Of a stretch of DNA of 64,000 nucleotides, positions 38,319-60,942 are shown in pieces. The DNA lies in the NCBI GenBank assembly GCA_964567265.1, contig CAZMLK010000001.1, positions 523,723 to 587,722 on the forward strand, read 5' to 3'. Position 1 is the stretch's first letter. The number at the start of each line of letters is the position of its first letter. The notes beneath the pieces were generated by a model. The model was not told the origin of the DNA. It searched no databases and saw only the letters and a list, made by a program, of their open reading frames with translations. The stretch comes from an uncultured Candidatus Saccharibacteria bacterium. Its GTDB lineage: Bacteria; Patescibacteriota; Minisyncoccia; Phycocordibacterales; UBA12088. A program made the translations under genes and the position numbers.

Positions 38319-39395
38319 CTATGAGAGGGGCTTCTCGGTCTGGATCGAGAGAACGAAGCCAAATGAGTTCACCACCGCCGGATAGCGTGCCCCTATACGG
38401 AGCTTCCTCCACGCATTTGGTGGCATGCTTCGCGAGACATCTTCCCCGTCGGCACCTCGGAATACCGCCGTGTACGTCTCGACGCGATGATCATCGCTAA
38501 TGCGAAGCGTCGGCGTCGGAACGAACACCGGCCATTTTGGATTGAAATCTTGTGCCTTTGCGGTAAGTGAACGATCCAATACCCACCGCATGACGTAATA
38601 CTCGGCGAAGCGATCAAATACCGGAACAGATTTATACTTGATCACTTTCTTCGGACCATAGACAGGTTCCGTGCAGAGCGTGACTTTCTTGAACCCGTTC
38701 TGGAGATTCCGTTCGCCGCAGTTACTTCCCGGAACATCGCGATGGCCGACGATCACCGATATTGTCTCAGTACCGTCTTCTACCTGCCGGAAACTGCGCC
38801 GCTTGTCGTACTGACGCGTGATCGTGGCGTCGCTGGGAAGCTGGTCAACCCATTCTTCCTTGTCGACCTTCTGGTACCGTTCAACATTGAGCGAGCGGTA
38901 CCATTCGACGCTCGCGAGCATCAGCGTCGTATCGGTCGTCTTCCAAAAGAAGAAGTAACCCAGGGTGAGTGCCGCCGCCACGGAAAGTGAGATAATTGCA
39001 GGAATCACCCATGTATTTCGGCTCGGGGTCTTCTCTGCTACATGGTCTGGGGCCCTCCTCCCATCAACTTCCCAGACTTTTACAAGCGTCGGCTTGTGCT
39101 TCGGGTCACCGAGTTTCTCGATCCCTTCCACATATCCGCAGCCAGGGCAGTGTTCTTCCTCTCCTTCTTTCTTGAGGTTCCGATTCGCGGTGCCGCATCT
39201 TTGACAAATCCAGAGTGCGCCTTCATCCGCTTGCGCGATGAGTGTGTCGTCGGTGACCACAACATCACCTTCGGATGCATCAGTGAAGACGACATGCTCG
39301 TCACGCGGACGCCCGCAGACACATTGCGAGACCCGCCCTTTATTTACGGTTCCGCATCCGCACGTCCACTCCATTTCAACGAGGACTTCTGTCAT
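38319..39395 (-). CDS. Membrane protein with an N-terminal cytoplasmic double zinc ribbon, one TM helix and a ~210 aa extracytoplasmic domain
   Basis: CGCGTVNKGRVSQCVCG and CQRCGTANRNLKKEGEEEHCPGCG are two C4 ribbons. A TM helix (WVIPAIISLSVAAALTLGYFFFW) is followed by a Trp/Tyr-rich domain. Confidence 0.6.
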   Translation of the reverse strand: MTEVLVEMEWTCGCGTVNKGRVSQCVCGRPRDEHVVFTDASEGDVVVTDDTLIAQADEGALWICQRCGTANRNLKKEGEEEHCPGCGYVEGIEKLGDPKHKPTLVKVWEVDGRRAPDHVAEKTPSRNTWVIPAIISLSVAAALTLGYFFFWKTTDTTLMLASVEWYRSLNVERYQKVDKEEWVDQLPSDATITRQYDKRRSFRQVEDGTETISVIVGHRDVPGSNCGERNLQNGFKKVTLCTEPVYGPKKVIKYKSVPVFDRFAEYYVMRWVLDRSLTAKAQDFNPKWPVFVPTPTLRISDDHRVETYTAVFRGADGEDVSRSMPPNAWRKLRIGARYPAVVNSFGFVLSIQTEKPLS

Positions 39396-47140: not shown

Positions 47141-47875
47141 CTAGACACCCGCAAGTGTGATCGCGAGATACAGGGTGAGCACTCCGAGCACCGTCATGAG
47201 CGTGGTCCAGACGGTCGGATGCGCATGGTGGCTTTCAGGGAGAAGGTCGCTCGCGCCGATATACAGGAAGAAGCCGGCAAAGAGCGCCAGGAGCACGCCG
47301 AGCGAGCTCTCAGGAAGCGTGAAGAAGAGCGTTGAGATGATGCCGAGGATTGGGGTCGTCGCATCAAGAAGGAGCCAACGGAACGCCGTCCGTTTCCTGC
47401 CGCCGTTCTTGAGGATGAGATTGACTGTGTTGATGCCGTCGGAAAAATCATGGACGAGGACGGCGACCGCGACGATCGCGCCGACGGCCGCTGAGACCTG
47501 GAACGCGAGGCCGATGGCAACGCCGTCGAGGAAGCTATGGATCGAGAGGCTGCCGGCGCCCAAGGTGCCGCGACGCTCATGGCCGTGCGCATGCTCTCCA
47601 ATGTGATCTTCGTCGCGATGGCTATGAAGCACGATGAAGCGATCGAGGATCATGTAGAGCACGAAGCCGAGCGCCGCGAATGCGGTGAGGGTGCTCGCGG
47701 AATGTGTCGCGCCTCCAAGCTCTATCGCTTCAGGCAACAGGTCGAAGAATGCGACCCCGATAACGGCGCCCGCGCTGAACCCGATGATGAGGTGGAGGCG
47801 GTCGCGGAACCGGAGCGCGAAAAGGCCGCCCGAGAGGGTGGCTCCGAAGGTCGCGATACTGAGCAGGAAAAGCAT
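47141..47875 (-). CDS. ZIP-family divalent metal (zinc) transporter, ZupT-like
   Basis: 8 TM helices. The His-rich loop HSHRDEDHIGEHAHGHE and the HDFSDG/HNxxEG-like metal-binding motifs in TM4-5. Confidence 0.9.
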   Translation of the reverse strand: MLFLLSIATFGATLSGGLFALRFRDRLHLIIGFSAGAVIGVAFFDLLPEAIELGGATHSASTLTAFAALGFVLYMILDRFIVLHSHRDEDHIGEHAHGHERRGTLGAGSLSIHSFLDGVAIGLAFQVSAAVGAIVAVAVLVHDFSDGINTVNLILKNGGRKRTAFRWLLLDATTPILGIISTLFFTLPESSLGVLLALFAGFFLYIGASDLLPESHHAHPTVWTTLMTVLGVLTLYLAITLAGV

Positions 47876-47986
47876 GCGAGCAATGGTAGCGCGAAGCAGG
47901 GCGAAATGCTACTCCCCAGGTGCCGTTCGACCGTCCTGTGTAAAAAAGAAAAGCTGAGCGCTTTGCCGGTGCTATACTGCGTGCAT

Positions 47987-48724
47987 ATGCATAGATCGCG
48001 CGGATTCGGACTGCCCCTCCTCATCGGCATCATCGCAATCATCACCATCGTGGTCGGCGGGAGTTATTACTATGCGGAGATGCGCTGGCCGAGCCGCGCA
48101 CCAGAACCGATCGGCTGCACACTCGAGGCAAAGATATGTCCTGATGGCTCGTCAGTAGGACGCACGGGACCGAATTGCACCTTTGCAGACTGCCCTCCGT
48201 TAGCCCTGGAAACTGGCAAGGTCACTGCCAGCAGCACGACCACCATCGCACCCGGACCGCTCTCTGCGGAAGAGCAGGCGGCATTGTTCAAGAAGGCCGC
48301 AACTCCTATAGCTGAGCCGAAGAAAGAAGCGCCAGCATTAAAAAAGGGGGGCTATACCGGGACCTTGCTTGCAGGGTCGACAAACACATCGCCACTGCTC
48401 GCATTCACCCTCTCGGATTATCGGAAAGCCCAGCAATCGGGACTTTTGATCGTTCTCTTTTTCTATAGCGACTGGTCGCCGATATCACGTGCCGAATTCG
48501 CTGAGATGCAGTCGGCATTCAACGGTCTCTCAGGCGGTGCGATCGGCTTCCGGGTGAACTATGTCGACAGCTCGATGGATGCCGATGAGAAAGAGCTGGC
48601 ATACTCATTCGAAGTCGCGCATGAGGCGGCGAAGGTTCTTCTCAAAGGCGATGCAGTGCTCCTGAAGACGACCAAGCAATGGATGGCGAAGGATTTCGTC
48701 ACTGAGATAAAGGCGAGGCGGTAA
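47987..48724 (+). CDS. Membrane-anchored thioredoxin-fold-like hypothetical protein lacking the CxxC dyad
   Basis: Start MHRSRGF sits 10 nt after a TATACT box (leaderless). It has a TM helix and a Cys-rich segment (CTLEAKICPDG..CTFADC). LLIVLFFYSDWSPISRAE resembles the thioredoxin FxAxWCGPC region with WSPIS substituted. The ORF-track 5' extension to 47537 is antisense to the ZIP gene and was discarded. Confidence 0.45.
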   Translation: MHRSRGFGLPLLIGIIAIITIVVGGSYYYAEMRWPSRAPEPIGCTLEAKICPDGSSVGRTGPNCTFADCPPLALETGKVTASSTTTIAPGPLSAEEQAALFKKAATPIAEPKKEAPALKKGGYTGTLLAGSTNTSPLLAFTLSDYRKAQQSGLLIVLFFYSDWSPISRAEFAEMQSAFNGLSGGAIGFRVNYVDSSMDADEKELAYSFEVAHEAAKVLLKGDAVLLKTTKQWMAKDFVTEIKARR

Positions 48725-50113: not shown

Positions 50114-52408
50114 TTACTTGGCGACTGCGACCGCTTCCTCGAACTTGACCGACAGGAGCTTGGAGATGCCGTCAGAGCCCATGGTGACGCCGTAGAGGAT
50201 GCCTGCACGGCTCATGGTCTCGCGATTGTGGGTGATCAGAATGAGTTGGGATTTCTTCGAGAGGCTCTCGATCATGTCGCCGTAGCGGCGGCTGTTGGCT
50301 TCATCGAGCGCGGCGTCGGTCTCGTCGAGTATCAAAAACGGTGGCGGATTCACCTGTGACATGGCGAAGATGAGCGCAATCGAGGTGAGCGCCCGCTCCC
50401 CTCCTGAGAGCATCGCGAGTCCCCGGACGCGCTTGTTGGGGAGATTCACCGACACATCCACGCCCTCTTCCGTATCACCTTCTTCCATCTCGGATTCATC
50501 GCCCGCCCCATCGAGATCGAGCGCGGCACCTTTCTTCCGCTTCTCCCCCTCAACCAGGGTGAGCCCGCCTGAGCCGCCGCCGAACATAATCATGAAAAAA
50601 TTGTTGAATTCGCGCGAGATAAGGTCGATGCCCTCGTGGAACTTCGCATCAAGCTTCGTCTCGAGTTCGACGATCAGCTCCTTGAGCGATGCAGCCGACT
50701 TCTCGAGGTCGGCAAGCTCGCGTGTGAGGAATTCATCGCGCTCCTTCACCTCCTTGTACTCGCGCATGATGTCCTCGGCCGACGCGCCACCGAGCTCTTC
50801 GAGCCGGATCTTCAGCTTCTCGAGCGTGCGGCGGCGCCCCTCCTGCACGTCGCGCTTCTCGGAGACGATGCTCTCCGTACTCGCCTCGTCGCCATTGTCG
50901 CCAAGAATGCGGATCTCCTTATACCCCCCGACATATTCGCCGATGAGTGCTGCCGCCTCCGAGAGCTCGCGCTCGAATTCGCCGCGATGTCGCACTACTT
51001 GTTCTTCCTGCATGCGAAGCGTCTGGAGTACTGTACGCACTTCGGCTTCCGAAGTCATGATCTCGAAGACGGCGCGTTCGGCCTCGCGGCTCTTGTCCTT
51101 CTTGCCTTCGATCTCCTGGCGGAGAGCACGGTACTGCGATTCAAGCTCGCGTTCCGCGGATTCCGCTTCCTTGATGCTCGAGGCGATGCGAGCGTGCTTG
51201 TCACGGAGTTCCTCGACGAGGCCCTCATTCTCCACGCGAACACGCTCCGTCTTCGCCGTCGCGATATGCGCGATGAAATCACGGAGCCGGGTGAGCGCAT
51301 TCTTGAGGGTCGTGCGGATGTGGGATGGATCGACTGATTCTTCCGCGCTCCGGAGCTCGCCTTCGATCTCATCGGCAAGCGAGCGGACATCGCGGAGCGC
51401 GACGACCTCGTCACCGCCTGTCTCGATCGCCTTCTCTTCGCGCTCCTTGCGGCGCTCTTCGGCGACGATCTCGCCTTCGAGGCGGCCAAGGTCACGTGAG
51501 AGCGTATCCTTCACGCTCCGCGCTTCACGGAGACTGGTCTCGATACGAAGCACGTCGTCGCTCTTCGCGTCATGGCCGTCTGACTCCGAAAGCGCCTGTC
51601 GCGCCTCTCGGAGCCGCTCCTCGAGCTCGCGCATCTCGCGCTCCGGCTTCTCCTTCTCGCGCGCCAATGATTCGCTCGCGTAGGCGAGATACAGCTCCTC
51701 TCGCTTCAGGTACTCCTGATATGACTGCGCGAGCTCTTCGCGGAGCAAGACCGCCTTCTGGAGCTTTTCAACTTGGCGCTCGAGGAAGCGGAGATGCGGC
51801 GCGTTCTCCTTGCGGAGCGCTTCCACCTGCTTCCGGTTCTCTTCGGTCTTCTCGAGCTTCTTCCGGCTCTCGTCTTTCTTGTATTGGAACACGCGAAGCC
51901 CGAGCGCGTCCTCGATCATCGCACGGCGCTCCTTCGGATTCGCGGTGAGCACGCGATCCGCTTCGCCCTGAGAGATGATGTGGTGACCGGATGAGCCGAC
52001 GTTGGCGCCGGCGAGGAGCTCGATGACATCGCGGAGACGCACCTTGGTGCCGCTGATCAGATATTCGTTCTCGCCGTCGCGATGCACGACACGCTCGATC
52101 GAGACTTCGTCATAATCAACCGGGAGCAGGCGCTTGCCGTTGATGCTCGGGTTGTCGAAGACGACCTTCACGCCCGCGCGGTTCATGCGCGCGACTGATG
52201 CCGATCCGTTGAAGATGAGATCCTCGCCGCGCTTCCCGCGCATCGACTTGATGGACTGCTCTCCGAGCACGAAGCGGAATGCTTCCGCGACGTTCGATTT
52301 CCCGGAACCATTCGGTCCCACAATAGAAGTAATCGCCGAGCTGAATTCCAGGTCGGTTTTCTTGGCGAACGACTTAAACCCCGAGACTTCGAGGCTCTTC
52401 AAATGCAT
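50114..52408 (-). CDS. smc: SMC-like ABC-type ATPase (764 aa) with an SMC head and long coiled coil but no recognisable hinge domain
   Basis: N-terminal Walker A (GPNGSGKSN). C-terminal signature LSGGERALTSIALIFA, Walker B ILDETDAALD and D-loop. Continuous heptad-rich region from residues ~170-600. No GxxGxxxDLI hinge. Start chosen at MHLKSLEV (52408), preceded by TACACT 7 nt upstream. Conserved rnc-smc neighbourhood. Confidence 0.85.
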   Translation of the reverse strand: MHLKSLEVSGFKSFAKKTDLEFSSAITSIVGPNGSGKSNVAEAFRFVLGEQSIKSMRGKRGEDLIFNGSASVARMNRAGVKVVFDNPSINGKRLLPVDYDEVSIERVVHRDGENEYLISGTKVRLRDVIELLAGANVGSSGHHIISQGEADRVLTANPKERRAMIEDALGLRVFQYKKDESRKKLEKTEENRKQVEALRKENAPHLRFLERQVEKLQKAVLLREELAQSYQEYLKREELYLAYASESLAREKEKPEREMRELEERLREARQALSESDGHDAKSDDVLRIETSLREARSVKDTLSRDLGRLEGEIVAEERRKEREEKAIETGGDEVVALRDVRSLADEIEGELRSAEESVDPSHIRTTLKNALTRLRDFIAHIATAKTERVRVENEGLVEELRDKHARIASSIKEAESAERELESQYRALRQEIEGKKDKSREAERAVFEIMTSEAEVRTVLQTLRMQEEQVVRHRGEFERELSEAAALIGEYVGGYKEIRILGDNGDEASTESIVSEKRDVQEGRRRTLEKLKIRLEELGGASAEDIMREYKEVKERDEFLTRELADLEKSAASLKELIVELETKLDAKFHEGIDLISREFNNFFMIMFGGGSGGLTLVEGEKRKKGAALDLDGAGDESEMEEGDTEEGVDVSVNLPNKRVRGLAMLSGGERALTSIALIFAMSQVNPPPFLILDETDAALDEANSRRYGDMIESLSKKSQLILITHNRETMSRAGILYGVTMGSDGISKLLSVKFEEAVAVAK

Positions 52409-52474
52409 AGGAAATAGTGTATCATGCCGCTCATGAAGGGCTGAAAAAGCAGGTGAAAAAGTGCAGCAAAAGAT

Positions 52475-52501
52475 AAAGGGCGCCCCGGAGGGGCGCCCTT
52501 T
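52475..52501. terminator. Bidirectional intrinsic terminator (AAAGGGCGCCCC-gga-GGGGCGCCCTTT)
   Basis: Perfect 9 bp GC stem flanked by A3 and T3. Placed to terminate the minus-strand ORF 52537..52806. Confidence 0.75.
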
Positions 52502-52536
52502 CATATGTCATTCGAACGAACTAATGAGTGTGCGCT

Positions 52537-53221: not shown

Positions 53222-53926
53222 CTACCACGCCTTCTTTTCGAGCGCCACGCGGGCTGCCGACTGCTCGGCTTCCTGCTTCGACTTCCCTTCGCCTTCAGCG
53301 ACGAGCTCGGTACCGAGGTAGACGCCGACGGTGAATTTCTTGTCGTGGTCAGGGCCGCTCTCTGAGAGGATCTTGTAGGTCGGCGTGATCGAGACGCGCT
53401 CCTGCGCTTCTTCCTGGAGATGGCTCTTGTCATCCTGCCAGAGCTTCTTCGAGACGATCTCGTCGGTCAGCGGGAAAATATTCTGCCCGATGAACTTCTC
53501 AGCGGCATCGTATCCCTGATCGAGATAGATCGCCCCGACGACCGATTCGAAGGTGTTCGCGAGGATGTACTGGCGGGCGCGGCCGGTGTCCTTCGCTTCG
53601 CCGCGCGACAGCATGAGGAACTCGTTCATGCCGAGCTTCTGGGCGACTATCGAGATGGTGTTCGTATTCACGAGCGCCGCGCGGTAGGCAGTGAGCTCAC
53701 CCTCGTTGTCGCCAGGGAACTTGTCGAAGAGGAACCGGGTCACGACCAATTCCAAAACCGCGTCCCCGAGGAATTCAAGACGCTCATTGTGGGAAACGGT
53801 CGCTCCGCGGTGCTCGTTGAGATACGAGCGATGCGTGAATGCTTGTTCGATCAACGCCTTGTTGTTGAATGGAAATCCAATGCGGGCGGTGAAACTATCG
53901 ATATCTTTCTTGTCCATACCGGTCAT
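53222..53926 (-). CDS. rnc: Ribonuclease III
   Basis: ERLEFLGDAVLELVV (RNase III signature) and a C-terminal dsRBD (KSKQEAEQSAARVAL). Confidence 0.95.
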   Translation of the reverse strand: MTGMDKKDIDSFTARIGFPFNNKALIEQAFTHRSYLNEHRGATVSHNERLEFLGDAVLELVVTRFLFDKFPGDNEGELTAYRAALVNTNTISIVAQKLGMNEFLMLSRGEAKDTGRARQYILANTFESVVGAIYLDQGYDAAEKFIGQNIFPLTDEIVSKKLWQDDKSHLQEEAQERVSITPTYKILSESGPDHDKKFTVGVYLGTELVAEGEGKSKQEAEQSAARVALEKKAW

Positions 53927-54074
53927 AGTTTATCTGAGAGTATTTCCACAGCCCTTCTGCAGACTTCAGATGCGAGGCGCGGGAAGACAAAGTTCGAAGA
54001 CGTATTTCATATACGGCGACGGACTTTGTTGGGTCCTGCAACGATGCAGGTGGAGTTTGCAGAAGGGCTGTCAA

Positions 54075-55004
54075 TTACTGTTTCTGCAACAGCAGATTGA
54101 TGGCCTTGGTAATAATGGGGAGGATATCGCGATAGAAGTTGAGGTCGAGGATGCTTGAGAGCTTGAACCAGCGGGCGTCATCGAGACCTCCTTTTTCTTC
54201 AAGGGTGATTTCAGAGAATTCTGATTCAGCGAGGAAGTAGATGACGCGCTTACGCTTCTTGCCGTCGCCAGGCGTCGAAGCGACGTACTCGTTCTCGCCG
54301 AGCTTGTCCTTGACGGTGATGTCGAGATTGATCTCTTCCTTGATCTCGCGGACGACGCCGTCTTCTTCGGAGATGCCGTCCTCGATGCCACCCTTCGGCA
54401 GCGTCCAGTGGCCGAAGACATCGTGGACGAGCGCGACATACACATCATCGCCTTCGCGAGCGAAGACGACGGCGCCGACTTTGCGCTCGATCGGAAGCTT
54501 GTCGTACGGGATCTCCTCGCGCTTCTTGTGCTTCCCTTGCGGGTGCGGCTTCTTGGAGGTTTCTTCTTTGCCGGGCTCGCCGAGCTCCTTGTACACGGCC
54601 CCGAGGACGCCGTTCACGAAGCGGCCGCTCGACTCGCCGCCGAAATTCTTCCCGAGCTCGATTGCCTCGTTTATGGCGACCTTCGCAGGCACTTCCTTGC
54701 GATCCGCGAACAGGAGCTCGTAGAGGCCGAGGCGGAGGATGTTGCGATCAACCGGCGCGATCTTGTCGATCGGCCATTCAGGAGCAGCCTTCTCGATGAT
54801 GAGATCGAGATCCTTCTGCTTCTCCCTGACTCCCTGGAGCAGATTCTTCATGTACGAAAAATCGCCCGTACCGGGAGCGAATTCATCAATATTGCGCTGG
54901 AGCACCTCTTCGACGTCGATATTCCCCTGGCCGTCCTTTGTAGTGACGTCCCATTCAAAGAGCGTTTGGAGGACTATTGACCTCGATAGGTGCCTGTTTG
55001 CCAT
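54075..55004 (-). CDS. nusB: Fusion protein: N-terminal transcription antitermination factor NusB domain plus C-terminal Nudix hydrolase domain
   Basis: Residues 1-140 (RSIVLQTLFEWDV...DRNILRLGLYELLF...VAINEAIELGKNFGGESSGRFVNGVL) are NusB. Residues ~170-309 carry the Nudix box GGIEDGISEEDGVVREIKEEINL (Gx5Ex7REUxEExGU). Confidence 0.85.
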   Translation of the reverse strand: MANRHLSRSIVLQTLFEWDVTTKDGQGNIDVEEVLQRNIDEFAPGTGDFSYMKNLLQGVREKQKDLDLIIEKAAPEWPIDKIAPVDRNILRLGLYELLFADRKEVPAKVAINEAIELGKNFGGESSGRFVNGVLGAVYKELGEPGKEETSKKPHPQGKHKKREEIPYDKLPIERKVGAVVFAREGDDVYVALVHDVFGHWTLPKGGIEDGISEEDGVVREIKEEINLDITVKDKLGENEYVASTPGDGKKRKRVIYFLAESEFSEITLEEKGGLDDARWFKLSSILDLNFYRDILPIITKAINLLLQKQ

Positions 55005-55084: not shown

Positions 55085-55309
55085 CTATTTCGCGGCAGTC
55101 TTCCGTGCGGTCCGGACAGTGCGCTTCGCCGTCTTCTTGGCGACATCGACAACCTGCTTCCCGCGGTACATCCCACAGGCCGTACAAACCGTGTGGCGCA
55201 CATGCTGGGCACCACAATTCGCACACTTTGAAAGGCGTGCGGACGGAAGGCGGTGGTGACTGCGTGTCGCCCCTACCTTCGCTCTTGTACGTTTCATCCT
55301 GACGGACAT
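55085..55309 (-). CDS. rpmF: 50S ribosomal protein L32 with a basic C-terminal tail
   Basis: RTRAKVGATRSHHRLP...CANCGAQHVRHTVCTACGMYRGKQV is the L32 zinc-ribbon consensus. Confidence 0.85.
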   Translation of the reverse strand: MSVRMKRTRAKVGATRSHHRLPSARLSKCANCGAQHVRHTVCTACGMYRGKQVVDVAKKTAKRTVRTARKTAAK

Positions 55310-60534: not shown

Positions 60535-60942
60535 GTGACCAGGATCCAAGCAGGAATTCTTGAAGAAGTCCAAGGAACACTTCTATACATAGTACGACCG
60601 AGCGATCTACAGTGGGAGAAAGCGCGGAGAAAGGGACAACGCCGGGACGGACAGGACGCAAACGCATTCCGCTCACAGCGCATGTATTTTCGCGGACTCC
60701 TCAGCCCAATCACACTCGATGTATGGCGAGTACTCCTACCGGATCCAGCAAAAGGTTTAAAGCGGCTGGTCGATTTTGTTTGGAAGAGCGGGGATGATCC
60801 TTCACCAATTTATTTCGCACTGACCGGAAGCGGGCACATATACGGCCATCTTGAAATATTCGACCACTGGCATCCCCTACCCAAAGGCACCTCACATTAT
60901 TGGCAATACTCAGAACGTCCCCTCACCGAAGAACCCATGTAA
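60535..60942 (+). CDS. Hypothetical protein (135 aa), GTG start, in a lower-GC segment
   Basis: GGAGGG RBS 5 nt before the GTG. Followed by a strong terminator. No family recognised. Confidence 0.4.
   Translation: MTRIQAGILEEVQGTLLYIVRPSDLQWEKARRKGQRRDGQDANAFRSQRMYFRGLLSPITLDVWRVLLPDPAKGLKRLVDFVWKSGDDPSPIYFALTGSGHIYGHLEIFDHWHPLPKGTSHYWQYSERPLTEEPM

What the first reader, a model, noticed from the sequence alone, without database searches (positions are those of the whole stretch)
54075..55004. NusB fused to a Nudix hydrolase
A single 309 aa ORF has a complete NusB antitermination domain followed by a complete Nudix domain with a canonical Nudix box. NusB is normally a ~140 aa stand-alone protein partnered with NusE. 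A covalently attached Nudix pyrophosphohydrolase could couple rRNA antitermination complexes to nucleotide or RNA-cap hydrolysis, as in RppH-like 5' processing. Alternatively it may simply be a stable gene fusion typical of reduced genomes.
Basis: seen in the sequence. Interest (0 to 1): 0.6.

Follow-up and report, generated by a model that had tools for sequence, protein, structure and literature searches.

The report
NusB with a tethered, often-dead Nudix domain
A whole group of tiny uncultured bacteria (Parcubacteria) makes its rRNA-transcription factor NusB as one protein with an Ap4A-hydrolase-like Nudix domain, and across the group that domain keeps its nucleotide-binding residues but often loses its catalytic ones, so it looks more like a binding or sensing module than an enzyme.

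Summary
The ORF is real: window 54075-55004, minus strand, 309 aa. It holds NusB (aa 7-139, above NCBI's equivalog cut-off), a 19-32 aa flexible linker, and a Nudix fold (aa 174-289).

It is not an artefact. 80 of 80 related species genomes carry one uninterrupted ORF in the same operon (rnhB-rpmF-nusB::nudix-rnc-smc). The identical protein also occurs in an independent assembly. Both halves are under equally strong purifying selection (omega about 0.05 and 0.04).

The Nudix half belongs to the Ap4A/ApnA-hydrolase branch (Aquifex aq_158, NUDT2, Ndx1), not to RppH.

The box in this copy is near-canonical, not canonical. REIKEE is intact, but the Gx5E Glu is Ile and the last Gly is Asn.

The main new point concerns conservation across orthologues:
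- The catalytic box residues drift. The full R-E-E-E set survives in 34 of 81 close species. The 'RE' Glu survives in 25% of 57 diverse cluster representatives.
- The equivalents of NUDT2's phosphate-binding lysines and adenine-stacking aromatics (K204, Y240, K252, Y291) are invariant in the 81 and 72-93% conserved in the diverse set.

Best reading: a NusB carrying a tethered module that binds a nucleotide or an RNA 5' end, with hydrolysis optional. It is undescribed in the searched literature. I rate it a new variant of known kinds, of moderate interest.

The parts
54075..55004 (-). nusB::nudix ORF, 309 aa plus stop
   Evidence: An uninterrupted orthologous ORF is present in 80/80 related loci.
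54582..55004 (-). NusB domain (aa 1-141), all-helical
   Evidence: PF01029 E 5.7e-34 and TIGR01951 at 126 bits against a cut-off of 88. AF2 model pLDDT >90 here. Foldseek matches T. maritima NusB 1tzt with TMt 0.84 and rmsd 1.9. F129 corresponds to NusB F122 (BoxA U8 stacking), D86 to AaNusB E81, and F16 to EcNusB Y18.
54495..54581 (-). Flexible K/E/P-rich linker (aa 142-170) with conserved ends LGEPGK.E and VPY[DE].[LM]P
   Evidence: pLDDT 53-58. Length 19-32 aa in 81 species. Composition K 21%, E 14%, P 13%. Omega about 0.08.
54078..54494 (-). Nudix-fold domain (aa 171-309) of the Ap4A/ApnA-hydrolase branch
   Evidence: PF00293 E 4.4e-15. A profile of this half against PDB sequences gives Aquifex Ap4A hydrolase 3i7u E 4e-22 and NUDT2 E 5e-14. 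Foldseek matches 3i7u with TMt 0.88.
54324..54392 (-). Nudix box GGIEDGISEEDGVVREIKEEINL (aa 205-227). REIKEE is intact; Gx5E Glu is Ile211; last Gly is Asn226
   Evidence: Box positions are variable among orthologues.
55085..55309 (-). rpmF (ribosomal protein L32), upstream gene of the conserved cluster
   Evidence: PF01783. Adjacent in 77/80 loci.
53222..53926 (-). rnc (RNase III), downstream gene of the conserved cluster
   Evidence: PF14622, PF00636 and dsrm. Adjacent in 80/80 loci.
53927..54074 (-). 148-nt spacer between nusB::nudix and rnc that folds into one long closed hairpin. A side observation; it may not belong to the fusion's function.
   Evidence: MFE -58.8 kcal/mol, z -5.78, 0/200 shuffles as stable. 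Similar hairpins occur in 13 of the 19 cases with a 70-400 nt spacer, the window's own spacer included.

Best explanation
This is the organism's bona fide NusB, the BoxA-RNA/S10-binding subunit of the rRNA antitermination complex. A flexible linker of about 25 residues joins it to a Nudix-fold module derived from an Ap4A/ApnA hydrolase.

Across the clade, selection maintains the module for its ligand pocket: two phosphate-binding lysines, two adenine-stacking aromatics and one metal-binding Glu. Selection does not maintain it for catalysis.

The most likely mechanism (inferred, not shown) has two steps:
1. NusB docks on BoxA of the nascent rRNA leader.
2. The tethered Nudix module binds an adenine-nucleotide polyphosphate group. 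This could be the 5'-triphosphate or an Np4-capped 5' end of the same leader. Alternatively it could be a free signal such as Ap4A or ATP.

Either way, the module would anchor or gate the complex that later hands the leader-spacer duplex to RNase III, which is encoded next door.

The window's copy keeps R219, E220, E223 and E224, so it may still hydrolyse slowly. Most orthologues probably cannot.
For: SHOWN
1. The fusion is real and clade-wide.
2. The NusB half is an equivalog-level NusB. It keeps the BoxA U8 pocket (F129 invariant, acidic D86) and the aromatic at the NusE interface (F16).
3. The Nudix half is as constrained as NusB. Median omega is 0.04 against 0.05, and dN(Nudix)/dN(NusB) is about 1.06. 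It is therefore functional.
4. It belongs to the Ap4A-hydrolase branch by sequence profile (3i7u E 4e-22, NUDT2 5e-14) and by fold.
5. Conservation is dissociated between binding and catalytic positions.
 - In 81 species, W200, T201, K204, Y240, K252, W279, Y291 and E224 are 81/81.
 - In the same 81, E220 is 48/81 (16 Lys, 9 Gly), E223 58/81, R219 70/81 and E211 67/81. The full R-E-E-E set is present in 34/81.
 - Box positions differ from the nearest neighbour about as often as the median Nudix site.
 - In 57 diverse representatives of 50%-identity clusters, E220 is 25%, R219 56%, E223 54% and E224 74%. By contrast K204 is 93%, Y291 91% and Y240 79% (plus 9% Phe); position 252 is Lys in 72% and Arg in 14%.
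6. Residue roles. NUDT2 K42, Y82 and K89 bind the P1 phosphate, and Y82 with F128 stack the adenine (PMC4734340). These align to K204, Y240, K252 and Y291. The inactivating mutants used by crystallographers, NUDT2 E58A and Ndx1 E50Q, align to E220 and E224.
7. A degenerate orthologue (box KIMKEK) still folds confidently as the same two domains (pLDDT 93.6) and again matches Ap4A hydrolases.
8. Gene order rpmF-nusB::nudix-rnc is conserved in 77-80 of 80 loci.

FROM THE LITERATURE
- Non-catalytic Nudix domains that bind Ap4A or ADP-ribose and act in RNA processing or transcription already exist: CFIm25 (PMC2425470), and the NrtR Nudix domain, which is a fold hit.
- NUDT2 acts on ppp-RNA (PMC8616924).
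Against: - No ligand or RNA binding has been measured, so the identity of the ligand is pure inference.
- W200, Y256 and W279 are also core residues of active Ap4A hydrolases, so part of the 'binding-residue' conservation could be structural.
- Some Nudix enzymes place their catalytic base outside the box, so loss of the 'RE' Glu does not prove inactivity. E224, a metal ligand, is invariant in the close clade.
- The window's own copy and 4 of the 5 sequences at 80% identity or more keep R-E-E-E, so catalysis may matter in this sub-lineage.
- AF2 gives no firm inter-domain geometry (pTM 0.73 and 0.60).
- dS is near saturation in many pairs, so the omega values are rough.
Confidence: 0.5

Rival explanations
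1. Active enzyme coupling. The Nudix half is a working pyrophosphohydrolase of Ap4A-hydrolase or RppH type. NusB brings it to nascent rRNA leaders, where it removes 5' pyrophosphate or an Np4N/NAD cap. Alternatively it clears Ap4A locally.
For: - The window copy keeps R219, E220, E223 and E224.
- The closest solved relatives are active ApnA hydrolases.
- NUDT2 dephosphorylates ppp-RNA (PMC8616924), and RppH removes Np4N caps (PMC9283932).
- E224 is invariant in 81 species.
Against: - Orthologues in the same operon and under the same purifying selection replace the catalytic residues freely. R-E-E-E is present in 34/81 close species. The 'RE' Glu is kept in 25% of the 57 diverse representatives, and about a dozen of the roughly 60 representatives listed keep R-E-E-E.
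- Relatives at 65-80% identity are mostly REQE or REDE.
- The window copy itself lacks the Gx5E Glu and the last box Gly.
- RppH family models score far below their cut-offs.
Confidence: 0.25
2. Protein-docking or structural module. The Nudix fold is kept as an interaction surface that is independent of any nucleotide. It might substitute for a missing rrn-complex factor such as SuhB, contact RNA polymerase, S10 or RNase III, or mediate dimerisation.
For: - Non-enzymatic Nudix domains that mediate protein-protein contacts are known (PMC5389931; CFIm25).
- The catalytic residues are dispensable.
- There is strong constraint over the whole domain.
Against: - The best-conserved non-core positions are exactly the phosphate- and adenine-contacting ones of Ap4A hydrolases, plus one metal-binding Glu. 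That points to the ligand pocket rather than to an outer surface.
- No partner has been identified.
- The presence or absence of SuhB in these genomes was not tested.
Confidence: 0.13
3. Functionally neutral fusion. A housekeeping Ap4A hydrolase gene lay next to nusB and became fused during genome streamlining. The two halves work independently.
For: - CPR genomes are compact, with short or overlapping intergenic spacers.
- The linker is flexible and variable.
- One relative (L081) carries an in-frame stop at the Tyr138 codon that splits the two halves.
Against: - A housekeeping hydrolase would keep its catalytic residues, and these do not.
- No relative with two intact adjacent genes was found. 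L081 is a single nonsense change in the same frame. L082 has rpmF-nusB-rnc with no Nudix at all.
- The fusion persists down to about 30% identity.
Confidence: 0.1
4. Assembly chimera, frameshift or sequencing artefact joining two genes.
For: None was found.
Against: - 80/80 species loci have a single ORF.
- All 120 of the 120 best hits carry both domains.
- The identical protein occurs in an independent assembly.
- Purifying selection runs across the junction.
Confidence: 0.01

Closest known systems
Stand-alone NusB (E. coli, T. maritima, A. aeolicus; TIGR01951/PF01029)
   Same: - Same fold: TMt 0.84 and rmsd 1.9 to 1tzt.
- Scores above the equivalog cut-off.
- Keeps the BoxA-U8 stacking Phe (F129 = F122), the acidic residue at the U8 pocket (D86 = AaE81) and an aromatic at the NusE interface (F16 = EcY18).
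- A close relative (L082) has a stand-alone 144-aa NusB in the same rpmF-nusB-rnc position.
   Different: Carries a C-terminal extension of about 170 aa (linker plus Nudix fold), which is absent from all characterised NusB proteins.
Nudix Ap4A/ApnA hydrolases (A. aeolicus aq_158 3i7u, human NUDT2 3u53, C. elegans 1ktg, T. thermophilus Ndx1 1vc8, C. trachomatis CT771)
   Same: - Best sequence-profile and fold matches.
- Shares the WT[LP]PKG motif, the adenine-stacking Tyr after the box and the second aromatic near the C-terminus.
- Shares both phosphate-binding lysines.
   Different: - Fused to NusB.
- The catalytic box residues are not conserved among orthologues.
- The window copy lacks the Gx5E Glu and the last Gly.
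RppH (RNA pyrophosphohydrolase; E. coli 4s2y, NCBIfam PRK00714)
   Same: Same superfamily. It is a conceptual analogue as a Nudix protein that recognises RNA 5' ends and Np4N caps (PMC9283932).
   Different: - Only a weak, partial match: 30 bits or less against cut-offs of 116-259, and Foldseek rank 50.
- This protein is not a member.
Non-catalytic Nudix-fold regulators: CFIm25/NUDT21 and NrtR
   Same: - They work alike in principle: a Nudix fold with a degenerate box binds Ap4A/ATP (CFIm25; PMC2425470) or ADP-ribose (NrtR) without hydrolysis. It acts in RNA processing or transcription control.
- The NrtR Nudix domain is a top-10 fold hit.
   Different: - Different sub-branches and different partner domains.
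- CFIm25 uses a different stacking residue.
- No specific homology was shown beyond the superfamily.
RsmB/Sun (16S rRNA m5C967 methyltransferase with an N-terminal NusB-like domain)
   Same: It is a precedent for a NusB-type RNA-binding domain fused to a second domain that acts on rRNA. RsmB models hit the NusB half.
   Different: - The partner domain differs (methyltransferase versus Nudix).
- RsmB's NusB-like domain is a paralogue, whereas here the fused domain is the NusB orthologue itself.

Membership tests
NusB (TIGR01951 / PF01029) | Score above the curated family cut-off over the full-length model | tested here: met
   TIGR01951: 126 bits against a cut-off of 88.35, model positions 2-130 of 131. 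PF01029: 117.8 bits against a cut-off of 23.1.
NusB (TIGR01951 / PF01029) | All-helical NusB fold | tested here: met
   The AF2 model has seven helices with pLDDT >90. Foldseek 1tzt: TMt 0.84, rmsd 1.9.
NusB (TIGR01951 / PF01029) | BoxA-U8 pocket residues (NusB F122, Aa E81) and the NusE-interface aromatic (Ec Y18) | tested here: met
   F129 is invariant. D86 is Asp in 95% (conservative for Glu). F16 is conservative for Tyr. Sources: alignments, residue roles from PMC3177189, conservation.
NusB (TIGR01951 / PF01029) | Binds S10 (NusE) and BoxA RNA; supports rrn antitermination | not testable with these tools
   Needs biochemistry. No rRNA operon lies in the window.
Nudix hydrolase superfamily (PF00293) | Alpha/beta/alpha Nudix fold | tested here: met
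   PF00293: 56.3 bits against a cut-off of 21.1. The AF2 Nudix half has pLDDT >90. TMt is 0.88 to 3i7u.
Nudix hydrolase superfamily (PF00293) | Nudix box GX5EX7REUXEEXGU | tested here: inconclusive
   The window copy meets 7 of 9 specified positions. REIKEE is intact; Glu7 is Ile211 and Gly22 is Asn226.
Nudix hydrolase superfamily (PF00293) | Catalytic box residues conserved among orthologues, as expected of an enzyme family | tested here: not met
   R-E-E-E is present in 34/81 close species. E220 is kept in 25%, R219 in 56% and E223 in 54% of 57 diverse representatives.
Ap4A/ApnA hydrolase branch (NUDT2 / aq_158 / Ndx1) | Closest relatives by sequence profile and by fold | tested here: met
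   3i7u E 4.2e-22, CT771 3.4e-16, NUDT2 4.6e-14, Ndx1 3.7e-13. These are also the top Foldseek hits.
Ap4A/ApnA hydrolase branch (NUDT2 / aq_158 / Ndx1) | Adenine-stacking Tyr/Phe downstream of the box, plus a second aromatic. Phosphate-binding Lys42 and Lys89 equivalents. | tested here: met
   Y240, Y291, K204 and K252 are all 81/81. Mapping comes and PMC4734340. PMC2425470 describes the stacking Tyr/Phe as 17 aa after the box; here it is 13 aa after, because the intervening loop is shorter.
Ap4A/ApnA hydrolase branch (NUDT2 / aq_158 / Ndx1) | Ap4A hydrolase activity; catalytic Glu (NUDT2 E58 equivalent) retained | tested here: inconclusive
   The window copy has E220. Among orthologues it is lost in 33/81 close species and in 75% of diverse representatives. 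Activity itself cannot be tested here.
RppH (PRK00714 models) | Score above the curated cut-off of any RppH equivalog model | tested here: not met
   Best score is 30.4 bits against a cut-off of 118, and it covers only the box region, aa 178-227.

The most novel reading that the evidence does not exclude
In Parcubacteria the rRNA antitermination factor NusB is ligand-gated or 5'-end-anchored. The tethered pseudo-Nudix domain would read either the 5'-ppp/Np4-capped end of the nascent rRNA leader or a free alarmone such as Ap4A. It would thereby control assembly or persistence of the antitermination/chaperone complex and the hand-over to RNase III. This would be a nucleotide-sensing input into rRNA synthesis with no counterpart in model bacteria, and it might compensate for regulatory factors that these reduced genomes lack.
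Probability: 0.25. Interest if true: 0.75.

Novelty: new variant of a known kind. Interest (0 to 1): 0.55.

Why it matters
NusB is one of the most conserved and best-studied transcription factors. In every characterised system it is a stand-alone protein of about 140 aa.

Here an entire, very large and uncultured bacterial lineage has welded a nucleotide-binding fold onto it. That fold has been kept under the same selective pressure as NusB itself, while its catalytic residues have been allowed to decay.

If the module binds the 5' end of the rRNA leader or a dinucleotide alarmone, it would reveal a new regulatory input into ribosome synthesis. It would also add a clean natural example of a Nudix enzyme turning into a binding module, and a handle for studying rRNA transcription in CPR bacteria.

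Practically, public annotation calls these proteins just 'NusB' and hides the second domain.

Tried and rejected
1. Artefact or frameshift: rejected.
2. A second NusB or Nudix gene in the window: none.
3. True split-gene ancestors. The 'stand-alone Nudix' P0267 (locus L081) is the same ORF with a single in-frame stop at the Tyr138 codon. The 'stand-alone NusB' P0195 (locus L082) is followed directly by rnc with no Nudix. No case of two intact adjacent genes was found.
4. RppH membership: rejected on scores.
5. A conserved motif (a BoxA-like or other element) upstream or downstream of the gene. K-mer counts over 81 loci showed only coding-sequence carry-over.
6. Promoter and terminator scans around the gene: nothing above the shuffle expectation.
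7. rRNA, tRNA or other RNA families in the window, to look for a BoxA leader: none.
8. Inter-domain packing. Only pTM was available (0.73 and 0.60) and no coordinates or PAE were returned, so this is unresolved.
9. An AFDB fold search to test the consistency of domain orientation across orthologues: the library was unavailable.
10. Literature. Three searches combining NusB with Nudix, fusion, Patescibacteria, Parcubacteria or CPR found no paper on this architecture. The Nudix-clan review PMC5389931 does not mention NusB.
11. Linker charge as a hint of RNA binding: median net charge only +1, so uninformative.
Full report
THE OBSERVATION

The window holds one ORF at 54075-55004 on the minus strand. 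It is 309 aa with an ATG start.
- Pfam finds NusB (PF01029) at aa 7-139 with E 5.7e-34, and NUDIX (PF00293) at aa 174-289 with E 4.4e-15.
- The NCBIfam equivalog model TIGR01951 (nusB) scores 126 bits against a cut-off of 88.
- No other NusB or Nudix coding region exists in the 64 kb (tblastn).

The Nudix box is GGIEDGISEEDGVVREIKEEINL (aa 205-227). Against GX5EX7REUXEEXGU it meets 7 of the 9 specified positions. The REUXEE core is intact, the Gx5E Glu is Ile211, and the penultimate Gly is Asn226. The fusion is therefore confirmed. 'Canonical box' is only nearly true.

NOT AN ARTEFACT, AND CLADE-WIDE

- The 120 best hits in the 5.8-billion-protein collection (67-96% identity, about 300-315 aa) all carry both Pfam domains. 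Where they are named at all, they are called only 'NusB'.
- A scan of one genome per GTDB species found 456 genomes encoding a relative. The 80 best loci are labelled Paceibacteria/Parcubacteria (Kaiser-, Taylor-, Nomura-, Zambryskii-, Adlerbacteria), unclassified Patescibacteria or bacterium MAGs, or uncultured 'Candidatus Saccharibacteria'. That last label on third-party (TPA) MAG assemblies is probably a generic one.
- In all 80 loci a single uninterrupted ORF spans both domains.
- The identical protein is present on an independent Logan assembly, and the cluster look-up records it on a 621,860-bp contig.
- An exhaustive HMMER search of 1.84 billion cluster representatives found full-length fusions down to about 30% identity.

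CONTEXT

The order rnhB - rpmF - nusB::nudix - rnc - smc seen in the window (Pfam) is conserved. rnc follows in 80/80 loci and rpmF precedes in 77/80.

Two 'split' candidates were examined:
- L081 has the same reading frame with one in-frame stop replacing the conserved Tyr138 (GVLGAV*KELGEP). That is a nonsense change or an error, not two ancestral genes.
- L082 has rpmF - nusB (144 aa) - rnc with no Nudix. Related lineages therefore have a plain NusB at the same position.

The fused NusB is thus the orthologue of the ordinary nusB, not an extra paralogue.

BOTH HALVES ARE FUNCTIONAL

- Nei-Gojobori estimates on the 25 closest pairs give a median omega of 0.05 for NusB, 0.08 for the linker and 0.04 for Nudix.
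- Over 162 sampled pairs, dN(Nudix)/dN(NusB) is about 1.06. dS is often near saturation, so the values are rough. They are still far below 1.
- AlphaFold2 on a 52-sequence alignment gives pLDDT 91.8, with a helical NusB domain, a low-confidence linker (aa 142-166) and an alpha/beta Nudix domain.
- The linker is 19-32 aa and K/E/P-rich, with conserved ends.

WHAT THE HALVES ARE

The NusB half:
- It superposes on T. maritima NusB (TMt 0.84, rmsd 1.9).
- It aligns end-to-end with E. coli and A. aeolicus NusB.
- By those alignments, F129 is the Phe122 that stacks on BoxA U8, D86 is the Aquifex Glu81 of the same pocket, and F16 is the E. coli Tyr18 of the NusE interface. Residue roles are from PMC3177189.
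- F129 is invariant and D86 is Asp in 95% of sequences.

The Nudix half:
- A profile of this half hits A. aeolicus Ap4A hydrolase 3i7u at E 4e-22. Next come CT771, human NUDT2, T. thermophilus Ndx1 and C. elegans Ap4A hydrolase.
- Foldseek ranks the same proteins first (3i7u TMt 0.88), together with the mycobacterial MutT1/Rv2985 diadenosine polyphosphatases and the ADP-ribose-binding Nudix domain of NrtR.
- RppH is distant: Foldseek rank 50, and NCBIfam scores of 30 bits or less against cut-offs of 116 or more.

THE KEY RESULT: BINDING RESIDUES ARE KEPT, CATALYTIC ONES ARE NOT

In the 81 species-level sequences:
- W200, T201, K204, Y240, K252, W279, Y291 and E224 are identical in all 81.
- E220 (the Glu of 'RE') is kept in 48, with 16 Lys and 9 Gly among the replacements.
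- E223 is kept in 58, R219 in 70 and the Gx5E Glu in 67.
- The complete R-E-E-E set is present in 34.
- These box positions differ between nearest neighbours in 10-13 of 81 cases. That equals the median rate for the domain.

Among 57 diverse fusion proteins, one per 50%-identity cluster:
- E220 is kept in 25%, R219 in 56%, E223 in 54% and E224 in 74%.
- By contrast, K204 is kept in 93%, Y291 in 91%, W200 in 93% and Y240 in 79% (plus 9% Phe).
- Position 252 is Lys in 72% and Arg in 14%.

Other points:
- Sequences at 65-80% identity to the window protein are mostly REQE or REDE.
- The flanking anchors (R/K ... xGU) show that the alignment of the box helix is sound.
- The invariant positions align with the human NUDT2 residues that bind the P1 phosphate (Lys42, Tyr82, Lys89) and sandwich the adenine (Tyr82, Phe128), as described in PMC4734340.
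- The variable E220 aligns with NUDT2 Glu58, and E224 with Ndx1 Glu50. Crystallographers mutate these two residues to inactivate the enzymes (entries 4ijx and 1vc9).
- A degenerate orthologue (P0229, box KIMKEK) still folds confidently as NusB plus Nudix (pLDDT 93.6). It again matches Ap4A hydrolases best.

INTERPRETATION

An enzyme family keeps its catalytic residues, and this one does not. Yet the domain is as constrained as NusB itself, and its ligand-contacting residues are frozen.

The best-supported reading is that the Nudix module is retained as a binding module for an adenine-nucleotide polyphosphate-type ligand, with hydrolysis optional. The window's copy (I211, R219, E220, E223, E224, N226) may retain some activity.

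Which ligand it binds is inference. Two candidates fit the setting.

(a) The 5'-triphosphate or Np4-capped end of the nascent rRNA leader.
- NusB binds BoxA in that leader.
- Ap4A-hydrolase-type NUDT2 acts on ppp-RNA (PMC8616924).
- RppH accepts Np4N caps (PMC9283932).

(b) A free signal such as Ap4A or ATP. This is how CFIm25 behaves: a non-catalytic Nudix protein of the pre-mRNA 3'-processing machinery that binds Ap4A at micromolar affinity without hydrolysing it (PMC2425470).

The invariant adjacency to rnc fits a role at the rRNA leader. So does the published genetic link between nusB and rnc. No inter-domain geometry can be claimed: pTM is 0.73 and 0.60, and no PAE or coordinates were available.

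RIVALS

- An active RppH- or Ap4A-hydrolase-type enzyme coupled to NusB remains possible for this particular copy. It cannot be the family's conserved function.
- A nucleotide-independent docking module cannot be excluded, but it does not explain why the pocket residues are the frozen ones.
- A neutral fusion with a housekeeping hydrolase is contradicted by the decay of the catalytic residues and by the absence of any relative with two intact adjacent genes.
- The artefact reading is refuted.

COMPARISON WITH WHAT IS KNOWN, AND NOVELTY

- Membership of NusB is met on every testable criterion.
- Membership of the Nudix fold and of the Ap4A-hydrolase branch is met structurally and by the binding residues. 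The defining catalytic signature is not conserved among orthologues.
- RppH membership is not met.
- Functionally, the nearest analogues are ligand-binding pseudo-Nudix domains attached to nucleic-acid-handling modules (NrtR, CFIm25).
- RsmB is a precedent for fusing a NusB-type domain to a second domain that acts on rRNA.
- Three literature searches and the Nudix-clan review found no description of a NusB-Nudix protein. Databases label it simply as NusB.

I rate it a new variant of known kinds: not categorically new, but not merely another member either. Interest is moderate (0.55). It is a clean, testable hypothesis about rRNA transcription in a huge uncultured lineage. The mechanism is still inferred, and the architecture is already visible, though unremarked, in public domain annotations.

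Noticed in passing
window 53927-54074 (minus strand), between nusB::nudix and rnc: The 148-nt spacer folds into one long closed hairpin with a 14-bp perfect basal stem (MFE -58.8 kcal/mol, z -5.78, 0/200 shuffles). Of the 19 cases with a 70-400 nt spacer (18 related loci plus the window), 13 fold far better than shuffles (z of -3.9 or lower). It could be an RNase III autoregulatory leader like E. coli rncO, or an inserted inverted-repeat element.
   Followed up: partly
L081 positions about 940-945 (contig JACCDV010735530.1): An orthologue has an in-frame stop codon exactly at the conserved Tyr138 codon (GVLGAV*KELGEP). Gene callers therefore report separate 'NusB' and 'NUDIX' genes. This is a nonsense mutation or a sequencing error, not an ancestral split.
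   Followed up: yes
L082 (Logan SRR22315509 contig): A related lineage has rpmF - nusB (144 aa, 55% identical to the NusB half) - rnc with no Nudix domain. The extension was therefore gained or lost within the Patescibacteria.
   Followed up: partly
proteins P0258, P0264 (and P0259): Relatives of 338-345 aa carry NusB followed by a Lys/Glu-rich low-complexity tail of about 200 aa instead of a Nudix domain. Pfam finds NusB only in P0258 and P0264; P0259 was not scanned and is judged from length and alignment alone. This is another kind of C-terminal extension on NusB.
   Followed up: no
protein P0254: A 306-aa protein combines an NAD-binding epimerase-type domain with a partial NusB domain. It is probably a mis-assembly or a gene-call chimera.
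   Followed up: no
window 50114-52504 (minus strand): The SMC-type ORF is only 796 aa. The true start is probably the internal Met at MHLKSLEVSGF, which gives about 764 aa. That is much shorter than the usual bacterial SMC of about 1,100-1,200 aa.
   Followed up: no
window 1-64000: There is no tRNA gene (ARAGORN) and no Rfam family at gathering threshold in 64 kb of a genome that is about 90% coding.
   Followed up: no
window 47537-48724 (+), 38319-39395 (-), 60535-60942 (+): Three sizeable ORFs (395, 358 and 135 aa) have no Pfam match at E of 1e-4 or better.
   Followed up: no
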